The notes: generated from the letters alone by a model not told the origin. A DNA stretch of 64,000 nucleotides from an uncultured Candidatus Saccharibacteria bacterium (GCA_964355645.1 CAYHDI010000001.1:92897-156896); one strand, 5' to 3'; counted from the first letter of the stretch, positions 18,662 through 54,650 are shown. Program-made: numbers and translations.

Positions 18662-19324
18662 TTAGTTGCGAAGCCGTTTTCTCTTGTTGACACTCGGTGT
18701 CAACACAGATTCCCCCTCAAGTTCTTTCAGGAGGTCCTTCTTTTTAATGATGTCTTTTAGTGACTCTTCTGCGAACTTTTTATACTCCAGAATGTTTTTA
18801 AATTGTTCTAAAATTAAATTTTTTGTGCACAATTTATTGCCAGCCTTTCCCATATACTCATCCCAGCTTGATTTGTACAAAGCACTTTGAGGATAACGAT
18901 GGACTTTATTATTAAGGTTTACATAAACACTTGTATGCAAAAGTTGCTCATTTGTTTCAATATGCACGGCTTTAAATTTTCCTTGAAAAAGAGAGCCACT
19001 TCTTCTGTTTCTAATATTAAAATATTTTGCGTAACCCATTCCTATTTTATGCATAAATCGTTCCACCCCTTTGTCACAAACTTGACGGAGAATGAAATGA
19101 TAGTGGTTCGGATTTAAGCAATAGGCAATAAATTCTACTAATTTTTTACTCCTTGATTCGGAATGGTTTCTATCAATATTTCCAATCTTTTCTGAAGTAT
19201 TGAATTCAGACATTCCCTCAATAAATCTGTCTAAATCTTTAGAAGAAGTAAAAATAATTCGCTTATCAACCCCTCTGTTGAAAATGTGGTAAAATTCATT
19301 TTCTTCAAATTTTAAGTTTCGCAT
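18662..19324 (-). CDS. Y1 (HUH) transposase, IS200/RAYT-like
   Basis: HUH-type motif NPNHYHFIL with a downstream catalytic-Tyr region. Flanked on both sides by the identical hairpin GTTGACACTCGGTGTCAAC. Confidence 0.65.
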   Translation of the reverse strand: MRNLKFEENEFYHIFNRGVDKRIIFTSSKDLDRFIEGMSEFNTSEKIGNIDRNHSESRSKKLVEFIAYCLNPNHYHFILRQVCDKGVERFMHKIGMGYAKYFNIRNRRSGSLFQGKFKAVHIETNEQLLHTSVYVNLNNKVHRYPQSALYKSSWDEYMGKAGNKLCTKNLILEQFKNILEYKKFAEESLKDIIKKKDLLKELEGESVLTPSVNKRKRLRN

Positions 19325-22591: not shown

Positions 22592-22990
22592 ATGCAAACA
22601 CAAAACAATAAACGTCCTATTTCTGCTTTTATTCTTGCTTGGTTGTTCTTGCTTGGTGGAGTATTCGGGATTATCGGTTCGATTCTTACTTTAGTGATCG
22701 TTCTTTCAACATCGGGTTCGACTGATGTTGCTTCTATTCAAATTCAAAATCTGAAAGGGATGTCTTTTTTGGTTGGAGGGTCTGGTGTAGTTATGGGCAT
22801 TTTAAGTATTATCGTGGCTTATGGTTTATTCAAAATGAAAAGATGGGCACTTGTTTTGCTGACTATTTTTGCTGCTACCGAAATCGTGTTATTCTTCGCT
22901 ACTTCTTTTCAGATTGGTAATCCAGTCTTTCTCCTCATCATGATAGTGCTGACGATTTACTTCTGGATGATAAGAGAAAAGTTTAATTAA
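22592..22990 (+). CDS. small 4-TM membrane protein
   Basis: 132 aa, four hydrophobic helices. Confidence 0.45.
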   Translation: MQTQNNKRPISAFILAWLFLLGGVFGIIGSILTLVIVLSTSGSTDVASIQIQNLKGMSFLVGGSGVVMGILSIIVAYGLFKMKRWALVLLTIFAATEIVLFFATSFQIGNPVFLLIMIVLTIYFWMIREKFN

Positions 22991-23002
22991 CTCGCCGAGC
23001 TC

Positions 23003-23060
23003 TCTCACATCAAATTTTTTGGGGCGAGATTCAACGGCTTCGAGAGCGTGAATATGGTTT
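23003..23060 (-). pseudogene. degenerate duplicate of the comM 3' end
   Basis: Minus-strand reading gives NHIHALEAVESRPKKFDV, against DHILEAVEYRPKKFDV* at the true comM end (23623-23670). Nucleotide identity is about 38/50. Confidence 0.4.
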
Positions 23061-23233
23061 GACAATCTAGCGTCAAGCCGTATACTTAATGTATTAGGTC
23101 CCTTCGGGGGACTCCGAGAAACCCGCCCTTCGGCGGGTTTTGATTTTGGCTACTTGCTTTATTTTAGGAGTTGACTATAATAATCATATTATGGCTTCGG
23201 CCTCCGAGGACCTCCGCAAGGGGGTCCGATTTG

Positions 23234-23617
23234 TTATAGTGATTCTAGCCAAGCGTTCTTAAGTTCGTTGAAGATTTTTTCATCAAGTACATCCACCTTG
23301 CGTAATAATCGTTTGTTGCTGATCACTCGCATTTGGCTAAGCTTTGCCCATATAACTCTTTCTTCCGTTTGAACTTTGTAATGGAATCTATCAGTTTTTT
23401 CTTTAGTAGTTAAAGGTAAGATTACAGCTGTTTCTTTGTTGTAAACTTTCATAATAATAACTGGGCGTTCGAAATTTTCATTCTTTCCGTCTATTTCCGC
23501 GCCAACATTAAGACCTAACGAACACCACCATATCTCTCTTGGGTGTACATATTTGGTAATAGGAGCTTTTTCAAGTTCCTTTTTATTTTTATTCCATGTG
23601 TCAAAATCTTTTTGCAT
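23234..23617 (-). CDS. PemK/MazF-family endoribonuclease toxin-like protein (no adjacent protein antitoxin)
   Basis: REIWWCSLGLNVGAEIDGKNENFERPVIIMKVYNKETAVILPLTTKEK aligns with B. subtilis EndoA/MazF ([28 protein letters not shown]...AIVAAITAQ). Confidence 0.55.
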   Translation of the reverse strand: MQKDFDTWNKNKKELEKAPITKYVHPREIWWCSLGLNVGAEIDGKNENFERPVIIMKVYNKETAVILPLTTKEKTDRFHYKVQTEERVIWAKLSQMRVISNKRLLRKVDVLDEKIFNELKNAWLESL

Positions 23618-23622
23618 TTGTT

Positions 23623-25164
23623 TTACACATCAAATTTCTTGGGCCTATACTCGACGGCCTCGAGGATGTGGTCGCGGGTAATTTCCTTAGAATTATCCAA
23701 ATCAGCGATGGTGCGAGCGACTTTAATCATTCGGTGATAAACACGCGGAGAGAATCCTAATCTATCGGACGCAAGATTGAGTGCAGATTTAGCTTCTGGT
23801 TCAAGGGTGATGAAATTTATCAAATCACGCGCACTCATCTCAGAGTTTTTTAATAAATAGGTTTTGTTATTTTTGTTTGATTCAGAAAATCTGGCGCGTT
23901 GAATATTCCTTGCATCAATCACTTTGTTTTTAAAGAATTCACTCTTGGCCCCTTCCTCAATACCTGAAAGTTGTTCAGCATTAATTCTGTCTACTTCAAG
24001 CCAAATATCTATACGATCAATAATCGGTCCGCTCATTTTTCTTCTATATCTTTGGAGTGATGTGGGAGTACAAATACAAGGTTTACCCCGAAAACCATAA
24101 TTACCACATGGGCAAGGATTCATGGCGGCGATTAGTAATACATTTGCTGGGAAGTTTGCTGTACCCTTCGCCCGAGCAACAGATATAACCTTATCCTCTA
24201 GTGGTTGTCTTAAACTCTCTACAACTCGTCTTTCAAATTCCGGAAATTCATCCATGAAAAGTACTCCACGATGAGCAAGAGTTATTTCTCCAGGTTTAGG
24301 CGTCGCTCCTCCACCAACGAGTGAAACATAGGATGATGTGTGGTGAGGCGAACGAAACGGGGGCTCGGTAATAAAATTAGCCAATGTACCAGCCACAGAA
24401 TGGATACTGGTGGCTTCGAGCGCTTCATCAAACGAAAGAGAGGGCAAAATACCAGAGAAGGCTTTGGCCAACATTGATTTTCCTGTTCCCGGAGGGCCAT
24501 ACATGGCCACATTGTGTCCACCAGCAGCGGCGATGAGCAGTCCCCGTTTGGCCCTCTCCTGTCCTCGGATATCAGAGAAATCAACACTAGAAACTTTGGT
24601 TTCTTTTTTAAATTCAGTTGTATTATTTTTTGTTAAAAGCCTTTTTTTGGTTAAGTGCCCAATTAATGAATTTAACGAATCAACCCCGTAGACATCTATA
24701 CCACTGATGATGGCGGCTTCTTCTGCATTTTCTTTAGGCACATATAATTCTTTGATACCTTTTAATTTGGCAAACTGAGTGATGGGCAATACCCCGCGTA
24801 CTGGGCGAAGTGTCCCATCCAATGATAATTCTCCAAGGAAAACTTTTTTCTCCGGATCAAAATCAATTTCTTCTGCAGATAATAAATATGAAAGGGCCAT
24901 AGCCACATCAAATGATGGTCCCTCCTTTTTTTCTGAGGCCGGGGCGAGGGAGATTACAATTTTATGGTTCTGTGCCTTTGGAGAATCATAACCAGAATTT
25001 TTTATGGCCGAACTTAATCTATCTCTGGATTCTTCTACGGCCTTATCTGGTAGTCCAACAACAGCAAAGGCATAAAGTGTCCGGGGCGTGATGTCAGTCT
25101 CCACAGAGACAATCCCCGCTGATAATGCTGAAGTCTGAGCGCTGTAAACTTTTGAGAAGCTCAT
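23623..25164 (-). CDS. comM: Mg-chelatase-like AAA+ protein YifB/ComM
   Basis: N-terminal Lon-like domain, Walker A GPPGTGKSMLAKA, and the YifB C-terminal domain. Confidence 0.9.
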   Translation of the reverse strand: MSFSKVYSAQTSALSAGIVSVETDITPRTLYAFAVVGLPDKAVEESRDRLSSAIKNSGYDSPKAQNHKIVISLAPASEKKEGPSFDVAMALSYLLSAEEIDFDPEKKVFLGELSLDGTLRPVRGVLPITQFAKLKGIKELYVPKENAEEAAIISGIDVYGVDSLNSLIGHLTKKRLLTKNNTTEFKKETKVSSVDFSDIRGQERAKRGLLIAAAGGHNVAMYGPPGTGKSMLAKAFSGILPSLSFDEALEATSIHSVAGTLANFITEPPFRSPHHTSSYVSLVGGGATPKPGEITLAHRGVLFMDEFPEFERRVVESLRQPLEDKVISVARAKGTANFPANVLLIAAMNPCPCGNYGFRGKPCICTPTSLQRYRRKMSGPIIDRIDIWLEVDRINAEQLSGIEEGAKSEFFKNKVIDARNIQRARFSESNKNNKTYLLKNSEMSARDLINFITLEPEAKSALNLASDRLGFSPRVYHRMIKVARTIADLDNSKEITRDHILEAVEYRPKKFDV

Positions 25165-27956: not shown

Positions 27957-28934
27957 ATGTCGCACAATATGGGAACAACTACTGAACTTGAAAAGCTGAA
28001 ACGAGAATTTCTCGAATATACTGAGATAGAGAAGGGTCGCAGTTTGAATACCGTCCGAAACTACGAACATTACCTTGATAGATTCTTCGAATTTTCGAAA
28101 GCGAAGAAAGCGAGCGACATCACGGACGGTCTTCTTCGAGAATATCGTTTGTGGTTGAACAGGCAACCCACCTTCGCCAAGGCTTCGGTGGGCAAAGTCT
28201 CTAGAGCAGAGACTTTGAAAAAGAAAACCCAAAATTATTATTTGATTGCTCTTCGCGCGTTTCTGAAATACATTGCGAAGCGTGGAGTGAAGGTCCTCTC
28301 CCCCGAAGTGATTGAACTCGCGAAGGTTGGTGAGAGGCAAATTGATTTGATTACCTCTGAAGAATTGAATCGCTTGCTCGATGCGCCGGATACTGCCACT
28401 CTGCGCGGTTTGAGAGACAAAGCGATTCTTGAAACATTATTTTCGACCGGACTACGTGTTTCTGAACTCTGTTCCCTACCCCGCGAGATAAATCTCGAAA
28501 GTGATGAGTATTCGATTCGAGGCAAGGGTGAGAAAGTTCGCGTGGTCTTTCTTTCTGATGAAGCGAAACATTCAATCAAAAATTATTTGAATAAAAGAAA
28601 TGATTTGGACGATGCGCTCTTCGTAAAAATCGAAGAGCAAAGTCAAAAGTCAAAAGTCAAAAGTCAAAAGTTGAATGAAGTTGCACCGTTGACTCCCCGT
28701 TCAGTCCAAAGAGTTATTAAACATTATGCCATCAAGGCTGGGATATCAAAAAAAGTGACGCCTCACGTCGTGCGACACATGTTCGCGACCGACCTACTCT
28801 CAAACGGTGCAGATTTACGAAGTGTCCAAATGCTCCTCGGCCATGCAAATATCGCTACTACCCAAATTTATACCCACGTGACAGACGCAGCATTAAGGGC
28901 AACACATAAAAAATTCCATTCGAGGAGGAAATAA
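27957..28934 (+). CDS. xerD: tyrosine recombinase XerC/XerD family
   Basis: N-terminal core-binding domain (TVRNYEHYLDRFFEF) and catalytic R..H..R..Y region (HVVRHMFATDLLSNGADLRSVQMLLGHANIATTQIYTHV). Contains an internal (AGTCAAA)x4 tract. Confidence 0.85.
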   Translation: MSHNMGTTTELEKLKREFLEYTEIEKGRSLNTVRNYEHYLDRFFEFSKAKKASDITDGLLREYRLWLNRQPTFAKASVGKVSRAETLKKKTQNYYLIALRAFLKYIAKRGVKVLSPEVIELAKVGERQIDLITSEELNRLLDAPDTATLRGLRDKAILETLFSTGLRVSELCSLPREINLESDEYSIRGKGEKVRVVFLSDEAKHSIKNYLNKRNDLDDALFVKIEEQSQKSKVKSQKLNEVAPLTPRSVQRVIKHYAIKAGISKKVTPHVVRHMFATDLLSNGADLRSVQMLLGHANIATTQIYTHVTDAALRATHKKFHSRRK

Positions 28935-29318
28935 TTATATCTTCCTACAATTTTTCTTTATCCAAATTTCTAATTTTTTGATATTTATTTCCTTTGTTGC
29001 TACCTCGAGCACCACGAATGCAACTTCTTTGTTGGAAGCTGTCAGTTCATATTTGTTTTCGTGCAAAAAACGAGCCACGACTGTTAGGGCTGTGCGTTTG
29101 TTTCCGTCTATGAAGACGTGATAATTTACCAAAGCTTCCAGAAGCACCGCCGCCTTTTGAAAAACATTTTTATAAAGTTCTTTTCCTGCAAACATTGCCT
29201 GTGGTTTATGAACCGCGGCTTGAAGTAGTCCGAGGTCTCGGATCCCATGACTGCCTCCGATTTCATCTATGAGCAAAGCATGAACAATGAGAACCTCTTG
29301 GGCCGTTAAGTATTTCAT
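28935..29318 (-). CDS. doc: Doc (death-on-curing) Fic-family toxin
   Basis: Fic motif HVFIDGNKRTA. Start taken at MKYLTAQEV (29318) rather than the ORF-track upstream Met. Confidence 0.8.
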   Translation of the reverse strand: MKYLTAQEVLIVHALLIDEIGGSHGIRDLGLLQAAVHKPQAMFAGKELYKNVFQKAAVLLEALVNYHVFIDGNKRTALTVVARFLHENKYELTASNKEVAFVVLEVATKEINIKKLEIWIKKNCRKI

Positions 29319-29319
29319 A

Positions 29320-29550
29320 TTACTCGCGCGCCAGTGTTTCCAAGGCGTCCTTGTATTTGTGAATAAACTTTTTTGTCCAATCAACAAGCTCCGAAGAGAT
29401 TTCCACGGAAGGTTCAATAGTCATTCGTTTATGCGCGGTGTCCAAAGAGACGTTTACCCTGTCTCCAATTCGAAGACCCAAATTCTCGAGAGATTTCTTG
29501 GGGAGAGTGACAGCTGCGGAAGAACCTACTTGAAGTATTTTTTGGACCAT
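29320..29550 (-). CDS. AbrB/MazE/SpoVT-fold antitoxin (Phd-like partner of Doc)
   Basis: VGSSAAVTLPKKSLENLGLRIGDRV has the swapped-hairpin AbrB signature. Its stop is 2 nt upstream of the doc start. Confidence 0.7.
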   Translation of the reverse strand: MVQKILQVGSSAAVTLPKKSLENLGLRIGDRVNVSLDTAHKRMTIEPSVEISSELVDWTKKFIHKYKDALETLARE

Positions 29551-54617: not shown

Positions 54618-54650
54618 TCAGAAACCCCGCCGAAAGCGGGGTTTCTGATA
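54618..54650. terminator. bidirectional rho-independent terminator
   Basis: GAAACCCCGC-CGAAAG-CGGGGTTTC perfect stem-loop. Confidence 0.6.

What the first reader, a model, noticed from the sequence alone, without database searches (positions are those of the whole stretch)
22990..23640. MazF-like toxin gene inserted at the comM 3' end with a diverged duplicate of the comM terminus
The last ~50 nt of comM (23623-23672, encoding ...DHILEAVEYRPKKFDV*) reappear at 23003-23060 at about 75% identity (encoding NHIHALEAVESRPKKFDV with no stop). The two copies bracket a lone PemK/MazF-like gene (23234-23617) plus a GC-rich array of tetraloop hairpins (GGTCCC-TTCG-GGGGAC, CCGCC-CTTC-GGCGG, GGC-TTCG-GCC, GGACC...GGTCC at 23090-23232). 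No protein antitoxin gene is adjacent. The hairpin array could be a terminator set or a non-protein antidote.
Basis: seen in the sequence. Interest (0 to 1): 0.55.

Follow-up and report, generated by a model that had tools for sequence, protein, structure and literature searches.

The report
MazF toxin cassette with RNA antidote
A 563-bp cassette behind the comM gene of a groundwater Patescibacteria genome carries a MazF-type RNase toxin gene and, on the opposite strand, two copies of a ~50-nt structured small RNA that sat beside this toxin in all 80 other genomes sampled; the RNA is most likely the toxin's antidote, a pairing I found in neither Rfam nor the literature searched.

Summary
A 127-aa PemK/MazF-family gene (23234-23617, -) starts 5 nt after the comM stop. 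The last ~50 nt of comM recur at 23006-23059 (82% over 39 nt; alignment score 43, next best in the window 23). Relatives show the empty site.

The "hairpin array" is two small-RNA genes on the + strand, 23093-23148 and 23188-23236. Each has a sigma-70-type promoter, a UUCG hairpin, a UCCGAG linker and a GC-rich terminator hairpin.

A covariance model of this RNA hits all 80 other genomes carrying a toxin homologue, always opposite the toxin and just past its stop codon, and nowhere else in 666 kb. Support for the RNA: 98% of cells paired, 233 compensatory cells against 66 in shuffles, 22 G·U against 0 A·C, and 41 GNRA loops against 2 on the other strand.

No protein neighbour is conserved. RNAs survive beside truncated toxins, but no toxin lacks the RNA. 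Rfam, PADLOC and the literature searches hold nothing like it.

Best reading: a toxin-antitoxin cassette with an RNA antitoxin, probably acting by direct binding (type III-like), less probably by 3' antisense pairing. How the cassette moves is unresolved. Target-sequence duplications flank it in 8 of 78 loci.

The parts
23623..25164 (-). comM (YifB/Mg-chelatase-like AAA+ ATPase), the host gene whose 3' end the cassette follows
   Evidence: Pfam ChlI, Mg_chelatase and Mg_chelatase_C. It is 80-89% identical in amino acids to the comM of syntenic relatives.
23626..23673 (-). T1: the functional comM terminus (DHILEAVEYRPKKFDV), the proximal copy of the direct repeat
   Evidence: The same peptide ends comM in L087, L090 and L091.
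23234..23617 (-). MazF/PemK-family toxin gene, 127 aa. Its ATG lies 5 nt after the comM stop with no recognisable promoter of its own, so it is probably co-transcribed with comM.
   Evidence: PF02452 at 7e-14. MazF fold. R51-P52 and T70 align with R25-P26 and T48 of B. subtilis MazF. All family-invariant residues are present.
23154..23181 (+). Promoter of the proximal small RNA: TTGCTT, 16-nt spacer, TATAAT. The -35 is weak and the -10 is perfect.
   Evidence: Read from the sequence. It lies in register with the family promoter logo, TTGAC at -34..-30 and TATAnT at -12..-7.
23188..23236 (+). Proximal small RNA: 5'-AUUAU, P1 GGC-UUCG-GCC, linker UCCGA, P2 GGACCUCC-GCAA-GGGGGUCC, tail GAUUUGUUA. 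Its 3' end reaches the toxin stop codon.
   Evidence: Model R1 scores 60.1 bits, E=1.6e-21. Terminator-like site at 23208-23227.
23059..23086 (+). Promoter of the distal small RNA: TTGACA, 16-nt spacer, TATACT (11 of 12 consensus positions)
23093..23148 (+). Distal small RNA, a diverged second unit: AUUAG, P1 GUCCC-UUCGG-GGGAC, linker UCCGA, P2 GAAACCCGCC-CUUC-GGCGGGUUUU, tail GAUUUUGG
   Evidence: Model R1 scores 38.1 bits, E=2.7e-12. Terminator-like site at 23118-23141. P1 keeps the hairpin through compensatory changes.
23006..23059 (-). T2: a pseudo-terminus of comM (NHIHALEAVESRPKKFDV, stop lost), the distal copy of the direct repeat. It abuts the -35 of the distal RNA promoter.

Best explanation
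The region is a compact two-component toxin-antitoxin cassette of 563 bp, spanning 23060-22 to 23622, that is, 23060-23622. It sits between the comM terminus and a leftover duplicate of that terminus.

Toxin. The toxin is a MazF-fold endoribonuclease appended to comM and probably transcribed with it.

Antidote. The antidote is not a protein. It is a ~50-nt small RNA made from its own sigma-70-type promoter on the opposite strand, and this window has two copies. The RNA has a short UUCG-capped hairpin, an invariant single-stranded UCCGA(G) linker, and a GC-rich hairpin with a U-tail that ends the transcript at the toxin's stop codon.

Mechanism I commit to (inferred). The abundant, constantly made RNA binds the toxin dimer directly. 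It presents the invariant single-stranded motif as a pseudo-substrate and blocks the active site, as ToxI does to ToxN in type III systems. When RNA synthesis stops, for example on cassette loss or phage shut-off of host transcription, the RNA decays and the stable RNase is freed.

A second, compatible layer. Any toxin-sense transcript that reads past the stop codon is fully complementary to the RNA. Duplex formation could therefore also destabilise the toxin mRNA, as in type I systems.

Origin of the duplicate. The comM duplicate arose when the cassette entered by recombination rather than transposition, and the extra terminus kept comM intact.

Shown: the anatomy, RNA conservation and covariation, strand of the RNA, promoter, exclusive co-occurrence with the toxin, absence of a protein partner, and the insertion itself.
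Inferred: antidote role, binding mode, trigger, and mode of entry.
For: RNA gene.
- A conserved element follows the toxin stop in essentially all loci.
- The promoter logo lies in fixed register with the RNA 5' end: TTGAC at -34..-30, TATAnT at -12..-7, and A at position 0 in 78 of 78 units.
- Model R1 hits all 80 GTDB loci, always on the strand opposite the toxin and adjacent to its stop, with no other full-length hit in 666 kb. The window has two hits and no others in 64 kb.
- Covariation: 98.2% of cells are paired. There are 233 double-change cells against 66 +/- 5.5 in shuffles, 12 of 13 pairs show compensatory changes, and sliding the register drops pairing to 42-58%.
- Strand: 22 G·U against 0 A·C; 41 GNRA tetraloops on the RNA strand against 2 on the other; 79 of 84 tails have at least 4 U in 9 nt.
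- The RNA is non-coding: 47 of 84 units begin AUUAG and so have no AUG.

Partner role.
- No conserved protein neighbour lies within 900 bp in 80 loci of unrelated context.
- In the reverse search from the RNA motif in metagenomes, 34 true RNAs were found. 26 have the toxin, 3 sit beside truncated toxins and about 5 have none. No intact toxin lacked the RNA in 106 loci.

Active RNase is likely. The protein has a MazF fold, and R51/T70 align with the catalytic R25/T48 of BsMazF (their catalytic role is from my own knowledge).

Direct binding favoured over antisense.
- The linker is UCCGAG in 81 of 84 units and the 5' 21 nt are near-invariant across toxins down to about 46% identity. A cis-antisense RNA does not need sequence conservation.
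- The toxin 5' regions are unconserved, often leaderless, and lack a Shine-Dalgarno target.
- The loops are closed UUCG and GNRA tetraloops, which are poor sites for starting antisense pairing.
- L024 and L025 have tandem units whose inner unit lacks a promoter, which suggests processing from a precursor.

Insertion. Empty sites in relatives and the significance of the repeat.
Against: - There is no expression or biochemical data. Toxicity, RNA synthesis and neutralisation are all inferred.
- The decay asymmetry (orphan RNAs exist, orphan toxins do not) is weak on its own. The toxin gene is about four times the mutational target of the RNA gene, so roughly two RNA-less intact toxins would be expected under neutrality and none was seen.
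- An obligate cofactor or guide RNA would produce the same co-occurrence.
- The arrangement differs from every characterised type III system: one convergent unit with its own promoter, rather than an upstream same-strand tandem array.
- The toxin is a MazF proper. Every MazF I know of is neutralised by a protein, and an antitoxin encoded elsewhere in the genome cannot be excluded.
- The proximal RNA promoter in this window has a weak -35.
- Only loci with toxins at least about 46% identical to this one were examined. The 1537-cluster family was not surveyed for the RNA.
Confidence: 0.62

Rival explanations
1. The partners are the same, but the mechanism is type I-like. The small RNA acts only as a cis-encoded antisense. 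It pairs with the 3' untranslated part of the toxin or operon mRNA that is transcribed through it. The duplex is cut (for example by RNase III) or the mRNA is degraded from its 3' end, so less toxin is made. This is how RatA/txpA and SR4/bsrG work in Bacillus subtilis.
For: - The RNA is convergent with the toxin gene and its terminator ends at the toxin stop codon.
- In the toxin-sense direction P2 is followed by CUCGGAGG and no U-run, so read-through is expected.
- In about 20 loci a co-directional gene starts within 50 nt after the cassette, and in L041 within 1 nt. Sense transcription across the RNA gene must therefore occur.
Against: - Near-invariant primary sequence (linker UCCGAG in 81 of 84 units) is unnecessary for a perfectly complementary cis-antisense RNA.
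- The RNA is almost fully locked in two very stable hairpins with UUCG and GNRA tetraloops, leaving only about 5-nt single-stranded stretches.
- Known type I toxins are small membrane peptides, or SymE and RalR. None is a MazF.
- Pairing lies entirely outside the ORF and the ribosome-binding region, and many toxin mRNAs look leaderless.
Confidence: 0.2
2. The small RNA is a genuine partner but not an antidote. It could be a cofactor, guide, specificity subunit or natural substrate of the RNase. Alternatively it could be a regulator or insulator that protects the host operon from the inserted gene. In that case the protein is not a growth-arresting toxin in vivo.
For: Strict co-occurrence fits an obligate cofactor equally well. 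No toxicity data exist. The decay asymmetry is not statistically decisive.
Against: - The protein keeps the MazF catalytic Arg and Thr positions and the MazF fold, and MazF enzymes need no RNA cofactor (my own knowledge).
- No other antitoxin candidate is conserved.
- RNAs persist beside toxins destroyed by deletion (L093, L138, L209). This is the usual end-state of toxin-antitoxin decay.
Confidence: 0.13
3. The hairpins are only bidirectional transcription terminators between convergent genes, and the toxin is an orphan or decaying MazF. The comM repeat would then be a relic attachment site of a decayed integrase-borne island.
For: Both P2 hairpins score as intrinsic terminators on the + strand. 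Rfam's only weak hits are terminator-type matches. A tyrosine recombinase gene lies about 4.4-5.3 kb away.
Against: - Terminators do not carry a conserved promoter, an invariant 21-nt 5' segment and a second conserved hairpin in 80 of 80 unrelated loci.
- The toxin is intact, with all invariant residues.
- The recombinase gene is also present in relatives without the cassette (L090, L091).
- Flanking repeats at other loci are copies of different local target sequences, not a common att site.
Confidence: 0.03
4. This rival concerns only the origin of the duplication. The comM repeat would be a target-site duplication made in situ by a staggered-cut or template-switch insertion and since diverged, rather than the product of recombination with a diverged donor ortholog.
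For: - The repeats abut both cassette ends closely: window 8 and 12 nt, L070 5 and 5, L041 31 and 1. This suggests defined element ends.
- For the window alone, 5 synonymous against 1 non-synonymous codon difference is not significant if half the changes fell on the selected copy (my calculation gives P about 0.28, from the counts).
- T2 also shows decay: Y to S, a 6-nt insertion and loss of the stop.
Against: - In L070 the two copies differ at 13 of 186 nt, yet 60 of 62 residues are identical (P<5e-5 under fully random substitution; about 0.006 under the conservative half-and-half null, my calculation). Both copies therefore evolved as coding sequence before being joined.
- T2 is no closer to T1 (32 of 39) than to the terminus of relative L090 (34 of 39).
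- Repeat lengths of 39-214 bp are far outside transposase-type duplications.
- The cassette carries no transposase or recombinase.
Confidence: 0.35

Closest known systems
Type III toxin-antitoxin systems (ToxIN, CptIN, TenpIN)
   Same: A protein endoribonuclease toxin with a Kid/MazF-like core is neutralised by a small structured RNA rather than a protein. No protein antitoxin is present. RNA and toxin are encoded within a few hundred bp. The abortive-infection logic is plausible here too. All of this is from my own knowledge of these families.
   Different: - The toxin here matches PF02452 (MazF/PemK proper), and no ToxN-type family appears among its Pfam hits. PADLOC, which I would expect to include those systems, gives no hit.
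- The RNA is not an upstream same-strand tandem repeat array separated from the toxin by a terminator. It is a convergent unit downstream of the toxin with its own promoter and terminator.
- Usually there is one unit; there are two in this window, L024 and L025.
Type II MazEF / PemIK / Kid-Kis
   Same: The toxin family and fold match. The catalytic Arg-Pro and Thr positions align. The C-terminal helix motif aligns with B. subtilis MazF.
   Different: - No MazE, PemI or other protein antitoxin gene is adjacent in any of 80 loci.
- There is an extra conserved N-terminal helix (residues 5-17, KDFDxWNxxKK) absent from classical MazF.
- Identity to solved MazF structures is only about 20%, and a sequence-profile search of the PDB finds nothing.
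Type I systems with 3'-overlapping convergent antisense RNAs (txpA/RatA, bsrG/SR4), and enzyme-toxin type I pairs (SymE/SymR, RalR/RalA)
   Same: The RNA is cis-encoded and convergent, with a 3' end that overlaps the toxin transcript. It has its own constitutive-looking promoter.
   Different: The toxin is a 127-aa soluble RNase, not a small membrane peptide. The RNA sequence is invariant across distant homologues. The overlap lies wholly outside the ORF.
Homology-facilitated illegitimate recombination, Campbell-type single-crossover integration, and islands that restore the 3' end of their target gene (for example tRNA or tmRNA islands)
   Same: The insert is bracketed by a functional gene end and a diverged duplicate of that end. 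The host gene stays intact. In L070 the copies differ almost only synonymously, as expected if one came from a diverged ortholog.
   Different: The insert carries no integrase. The flanking repeats differ in sequence and length from locus to locus. The repeats start within 0-37 nt of a defined cassette end, which simple illegitimate recombination does not predict.

Membership tests
MazF/PemK toxin family (PF02452) | Sequence match to the family profile above the curated threshold | tested here: met
   52.4 bits against a cut-off of 23.1, E=7.2e-14, covering residues 27-122
MazF/PemK toxin family (PF02452) | SH3-like beta-barrel MazF/Kid/CcdB fold | tested here: met
   AlphaFold2 model at pLDDT 76.6. 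The top 40 or so Foldseek PDB hits are all MazF, with TM about 0.55-0.65 and probability 1.00. Residues 23-38 are low-confidence.
MazF/PemK toxin family (PF02452) | Catalytic Arg and Thr/Ser (R25/T48 in B. subtilis MazF; their role is from my own knowledge) | tested here: met
   R51-P52 aligns with R25-P26 and T70 with T48 in a pairwise alignment. R51 is invariant and T70 at least 90% conserved in 120 homologues.
Type II MazEF module | Adjacent, usually upstream and co-transcribed, protein antitoxin gene (MazE, PemI or Kis) | tested here: not met
   No conserved ORF of 35 aa or more lies within 900 bp in 80 loci. The only recurring 'ORFs' are translations of the conserved RNA element. In the window the upstream gene is comM.
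Type III TA (ToxIN/CptIN/TenpIN) | Toxin of the ToxN/AbiQ, CptN or TenpN families | tested here: not met
   Pfam lists PemK_toxin as the only family at E<=0.01. PADLOC gives no hit.
Type III TA (ToxIN/CptIN/TenpIN) | Antitoxin is a tandem array of direct RNA repeats upstream of the toxin and on the same strand, separated from it by a terminator | tested here: not met
   TRF finds no array. The RNA units are downstream, on the opposite strand, each with its own promoter.
Type III TA (ToxIN/CptIN/TenpIN) | The RNA binds and inhibits the toxin protein, and the toxin processes the RNA | not testable with these tools
   This can only be inferred, from the invariant single-stranded motif and from tandem units without an internal promoter in L024 and L025.
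Type I TA | Antisense RNA complementary to the toxin mRNA, encoded at the same locus | tested here: inconclusive
   Complementarity exists only if the toxin transcript reads past its stop. No sense-strand terminator precedes the RNA gene, and downstream co-directional genes imply read-through. No transcript data are available.
Type I TA | Small (under about 60 aa) hydrophobic toxin peptide | tested here: not met
   The toxin is a 127-aa soluble protein with a MazF fold.
Any Rfam 15 RNA family | Covariance-model match at or near the gathering score | tested here: not met
   Only sub-threshold terminator-type hits appear, such as P9 at 26 bits against a gathering score of 43, in the window and in two canonical loci.
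Integrase-borne integrative element (att duplication of a gene 3' end) | A site-specific recombinase within the element and a common att core at all insertions | tested here: not met
   The 563-bp insert has no room for a recombinase. The nearby tyrosine recombinase gene is also present in cassette-free relatives. Flanking repeats at other loci are unrelated to each other in sequence.

The most novel reading that the evidence does not exclude
This would be a previously unrecognised class of toxin-antitoxin module, widespread in Patescibacteria. In it a bona fide MazF-family RNase is held in check by a dedicated, convergently transcribed ~50-nt RNA acting as a pseudo-substrate. That would make it a type III-like mechanism evolved independently on a type II toxin scaffold. 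The minimal ~0.5-kb cassette spreads between genomes by recombination and lodges inside host operons, directly behind housekeeping genes such as comM, duplicating the target's end as it enters.
Probability: 0.4. Interest if true: 0.85.

Novelty: new variant of a known kind. Interest (0 to 1): 0.77.

Why it matters
MazF is the textbook type II toxin, and every characterised member I know of has a protein antitoxin. A large MazF clade that consistently swaps the protein for a tiny structured RNA would blur the type I, II and III boundaries. The clade comprises 1537 clusters at 50% identity at E<=1e-10, and the RNA was present in 80 of 80 sampled genomes.

It would also give a minimal RNA inhibitor of a MazF active site, with an invariant AUUAKGGCUUCGGCCUCCGAG element. 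It would explain why so many 'orphan' MazF genes are annotated in CPR genomes.

It provides a new conserved non-coding RNA family for ultra-small, uncultivated bacteria, in which few regulatory RNAs are known. The cassette's habit of sitting inside operons with duplicated gene ends is a visible trace of gene flow by recombination among Patescibacteria.

The central claim is directly testable in E. coli with two small synthetic constructs.

Tried and rejected
- Known RNA families. Rfam 15 at E<=10 on the window region and at E<=1 on two canonical loci gave only sub-threshold terminator-like hits.
- Toxin annotation beyond Pfam. NCBIfam, PADLOC and a PDB sequence-profile search all returned nothing.
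- Protein antitoxin. Clustering all ORFs of 35 aa or more within 900 bp of 80 toxins found no conserved partner. A peptide encoded in the RNA is excluded because 47 of 84 units lack the AUG.
- Type III tandem repeats. TRF found none.
- RNA pairing with the toxin ribosome-binding site through its CCUCC. The toxin 5' regions are unconserved and often leaderless, with no Shine-Dalgarno motif.
- Phage carriage. No RNA-motif match and no toxin relative in IMG/VR.
- Diversity-generating retroelement (a diverged repeat of a gene 3' end). There is no reverse transcriptase and the differences are not adenine-specific (reading).
- Integron attC or integrase att site. There is no common core, and the recombinase is also present in cassette-free relatives.
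- Y1 (IS200/RAYT-like) transposase as mobiliser. The gene at 18665-19324 has homologues near the toxin in only 3 of about 200 loci.
- Recombination breakpoint inside comM. Sliding identity to three relatives shows no clear switch.
- Toxin remnant in L087 and L090. Only 4 bits, so suggestive and not established.
- Raw metagenome hits to the 16-mer were mostly chance matches in GC-rich coding sequence and had to be filtered with the model.
- Literature. Four full-text searches found no description of a MazF with a convergent small RNA or of this motif.
Full report
SOURCE AND ANATOMY. The window is identical to a 189-kb contig from Hainich groundwater well H52 (L001). Its proteins match Parcubacteria and Patescibacteria MAGs.

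On the - strand, comM (23623-25164; ChlI, Mg_chelatase and Mg_chelatase_C) is followed after 5 nt by a 127-aa ORF at 23234-23617. That ORF matches PF02452 PemK_toxin at E=7e-14, 52 bits against a cut-off of 23. Beyond it lie four GC-rich hairpins, then a sequence resembling the end of comM, then a convergent 132-aa membrane ORF (22592-22990, +) and the LysM/M23 peptidase gene.

THE REPEAT IS REAL. The repeat finder reports 23006-23044 versus 23626-23664, 39 nt at 82% identity and 620 bp apart. With a 6-nt indel the similarity runs to 23059 and 23673. The local-alignment score is 43, against at most about 25 for shuffles and 23 for the next best place on either strand of the window. The peptides are ...DHILEAVEYRPKKFDV* and NHIHALEAVESRPKKFDV without a stop.

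IT IS AN INSERTION. The closest comM relatives keep the synteny dksA-comM-peptidase-uvrD but lack the toxin. In L091 (80% aa) comM overlaps the peptidase gene end by 4 nt, which is a clean empty site. In L087 (89%) 103 bp separate the two genes. None of 80 other genomes with a toxin homologue has comM beside it. The two closest toxins (76% identity) lie after obg and after scpB.

THE HAIRPINS ARE TWO SMALL-RNA GENES ON THE + STRAND. I printed the 170 nt after the toxin stop in 80 GTDB loci. This exposed a conserved element. Read on the strand opposite the toxin, it has these parts:
- TTGAC, a 16-17-nt spacer, TATAnT, then about 6 nt.
- AUUAK-GGC-UUCG-GCC-UCCGA-[G-stem-loop-stem-C]-GAUKUUUU, ending at the complement of the toxin stop codon.

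The promoter logo is in fixed register with the RNA start. T at -34 occurs in 69 of 78 units, TATAnT at -12..-7 with 55-72 of 78 per position, and A at position 0 in 78 of 78.

A covariance model (R1) finds two copies in the 64-kb window: 23188-23236 (60 bits) and 23093-23148 (38 bits). It finds at least one copy in every one of the 80 loci, always antisense to the toxin and next to its stop, and no other full-length hit in 666 kb.

Structure support: 98.2% of 1058 cells are paired, against 72.8% in shuffles. There are 233 double-change cells against 66. Twelve of 13 pairs show compensatory changes. Pairing falls to 42-58% when the register is slid.

Three tests assign the RNA to the strand opposite the toxin:
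- 22 G·U against 0 A·C.
- 41 GNRA tetraloops against 2.
- UUCG caps on P1.

The RNA is not coding, since 47 of 84 units start AUUAG and so have no AUG. Rfam 15 has no matching family.

In this window the distal unit has the better promoter, TTGACA-16-TATACT at 23059-23086. Its P1 is lengthened but still closed (GUCCC-UUCGG-GGGAC). The proximal unit has TTGCTT-16-TATAAT at 23154-23181. L024 and L025 also have two units, and in both the inner one lacks a promoter.

THE PROTEIN. The AlphaFold2 model (pLDDT 76.6; residues 23-38 poor) is a beta-barrel with an extra N-terminal helix and a C-terminal helix. The best PDB matches are S. aureus, B. subtilis and M. tuberculosis MazF at about 20% identity. 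R51-P52 and T70 align with R25-P26 and T48 of B. subtilis MazF, which I know as the catalytic pair, and both are conserved in 120 homologues. hhalign confirms only the C-terminal motif. The family has 1537 representatives at 50% identity with E<=1e-10. NCBIfam, PADLOC and a PDB sequence-profile search are silent.

WHY AN RNA ANTIDOTE.
- No protein neighbour is conserved, while the RNA is present in 80 of 80 loci.
- I also searched in the reverse direction, scanning metagenomes for GGCTTCGGCCTCCGAG and filtering with R1. This gave 34 true RNAs. Twenty-six have the toxin, four of them cut by a contig end. Three sit beside toxins reduced to stubs or carrying an internal deletion (L093, L138, L209). 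About five have no toxin.
- Toxins without the RNA were never seen. RNAs without an intact toxin were. This is the expected direction of toxin-antitoxin decay, but it is not statistically decisive because the toxin gene is the larger mutational target.

WHICH MECHANISM. I favour direct protein binding, as in type III systems.
- The 21-nt 5' part, and especially the single-stranded linker (UCCGAG in 81 of 84 units), are invariant across toxins only about 46-50% identical to this one. A cis-antisense RNA would not need that.
- The toxin 5' regions are unconserved and often leaderless, with TATAAT 7-12 nt before the ATG, so there is no trans target.
- The RNA is otherwise locked in tetraloop-capped helices.

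Antisense action remains possible and may coexist. Nothing terminates the sense transcript before the RNA gene. In about 20 loci a co-directional gene starts within 50 nt after the cassette, so RNA complementary to the small RNA must be made.

THE DUPLICATION IN CONTEXT. I defined the cassette as running from the toxin ATG to the RNA -35. By that definition 8 of 78 loci have direct repeats of local target sequence flanking it (score >=36), against 2 of 266 control intervals. The repeats are 39-214 bp long and 78-94% identical. In five of the eight they abut both ends within about 40 nt. Examples:
- L070: 214 bp, the 3' end of a histidine kinase gene, lying 5 nt from each end.
- L041: 76 bp, the 5' end of a tatD-like gene.
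- The window itself.

In L070 the copies differ at 13 of 186 nt, yet 60 of 62 residues are the same. Both copies must therefore have evolved as coding sequence, which points to recombination with a diverged ortholog rather than an in-situ duplication.

For the window (5 synonymous and 1 non-synonymous codon) and L041 (6 and 2) the bias is significant only under the naive null. T2 also shows decay: Y to S, a 6-nt insertion and loss of the stop. T2 is no closer to T1 (32 of 39) than to L090's terminus (34 of 39). T1-T2 identity equals the species-level divergence of comM, about 80%.

The cassette carries no recombinase, is absent from IMG/VR, and has a defined 3' end but no conserved 5' end. Its means of movement is unresolved.

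VERDICT. The module belongs to the MazF toxin family but fails the defining organisation of type II, type III and type I systems. It is best described as a new variant: a MazF toxin with a convergent small-RNA antitoxin.

Noticed in passing
L087:5540-5600 and L090:5543-5594: In the closest cassette-free relatives a short reading frame directly after the comM stop ends in F[C/R]ALR[K/R]AWLE*. This resembles the toxin C-terminus (profile positions 108-125) but scores only 4 bits. It may be the scar of a lost cassette, which would make the comM site ancestral in this clade.
   Followed up: partly
window 22592-22990 (+): A 132-aa ORF with about four predicted membrane helices lies between the peptidase gene and the comM pseudo-terminus. 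It has no Pfam or NCBIfam hit. It is absent from L087 and L091 and from every other locus fetched, so it is a second lineage-specific gene in the same gap.
   Followed up: partly
window 18665-19324 (-): A Y1 (IS200/RAYT-like, PF01797 weak) transposase-like gene lies between uvrD and the rRNA adenine dimethylase gene. It is absent at that position in L087 and L091. Homologues occur near the toxin in only 3 of about 200 loci (L065, L153, L176), so no link to the cassette was established.
   Followed up: partly
window about 27969-29550 (from L001:68-1649): The gene calls for the same contig list an AbrB/MazE-type antitoxin gene, a Fic-domain gene and a tyrosine recombinase gene in a row. This looks like a separate, conventional protein toxin-antitoxin pair. 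The recombinase is also present in cassette-free relatives.
   Followed up: no
L093:6139-6188, L138:2699-2753, L209:41-95; also L149, L201, L100, L190, L206: Intact-looking copies of the small RNA sit beside toxin genes reduced to stubs or carrying an internal deletion, or with no toxin at all. In L149 the orphan RNA lies next to the end of an RNase III gene.
   Followed up: partly
L020, L043, L050, L062, L065, L067 (second hits): Several genomes carry two toxin paralogues (35-46% identical to the query) within 1-2 kb. In L065 they share a duplicated upstream hairpin-plus-promoter segment about 100 nt long.
   Followed up: no
L009, L035, L044, L049, L056, L065, L066, L073, L086 (70 nt upstream of the toxin ATG): Many toxin genes have a TATAAT-like box 7-12 nt before the ATG and no Shine-Dalgarno motif, which suggests leaderless mRNAs. 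In 17 other loci, as in the window, the ATG lies within 15 nt of the upstream gene's stop.
   Followed up: partly
L029, L047, L053: Three toxin-plus-RNA loci come from MAGs labelled Hyphomonadaceae or Gammaproteobacteria. This could be mis-binning of Patescibacteria contigs or real spread outside the phylum. I did not check.
   Followed up: no
window 54620-54645 (+): A GC-rich GAAA-capped hairpin (AGAAACCCCGCCGAAAGCGGGGUUUC) matches only the P2 part of the RNA model at 18 bits. It looks like an ordinary terminator and not a third RNA copy.
   Followed up: no
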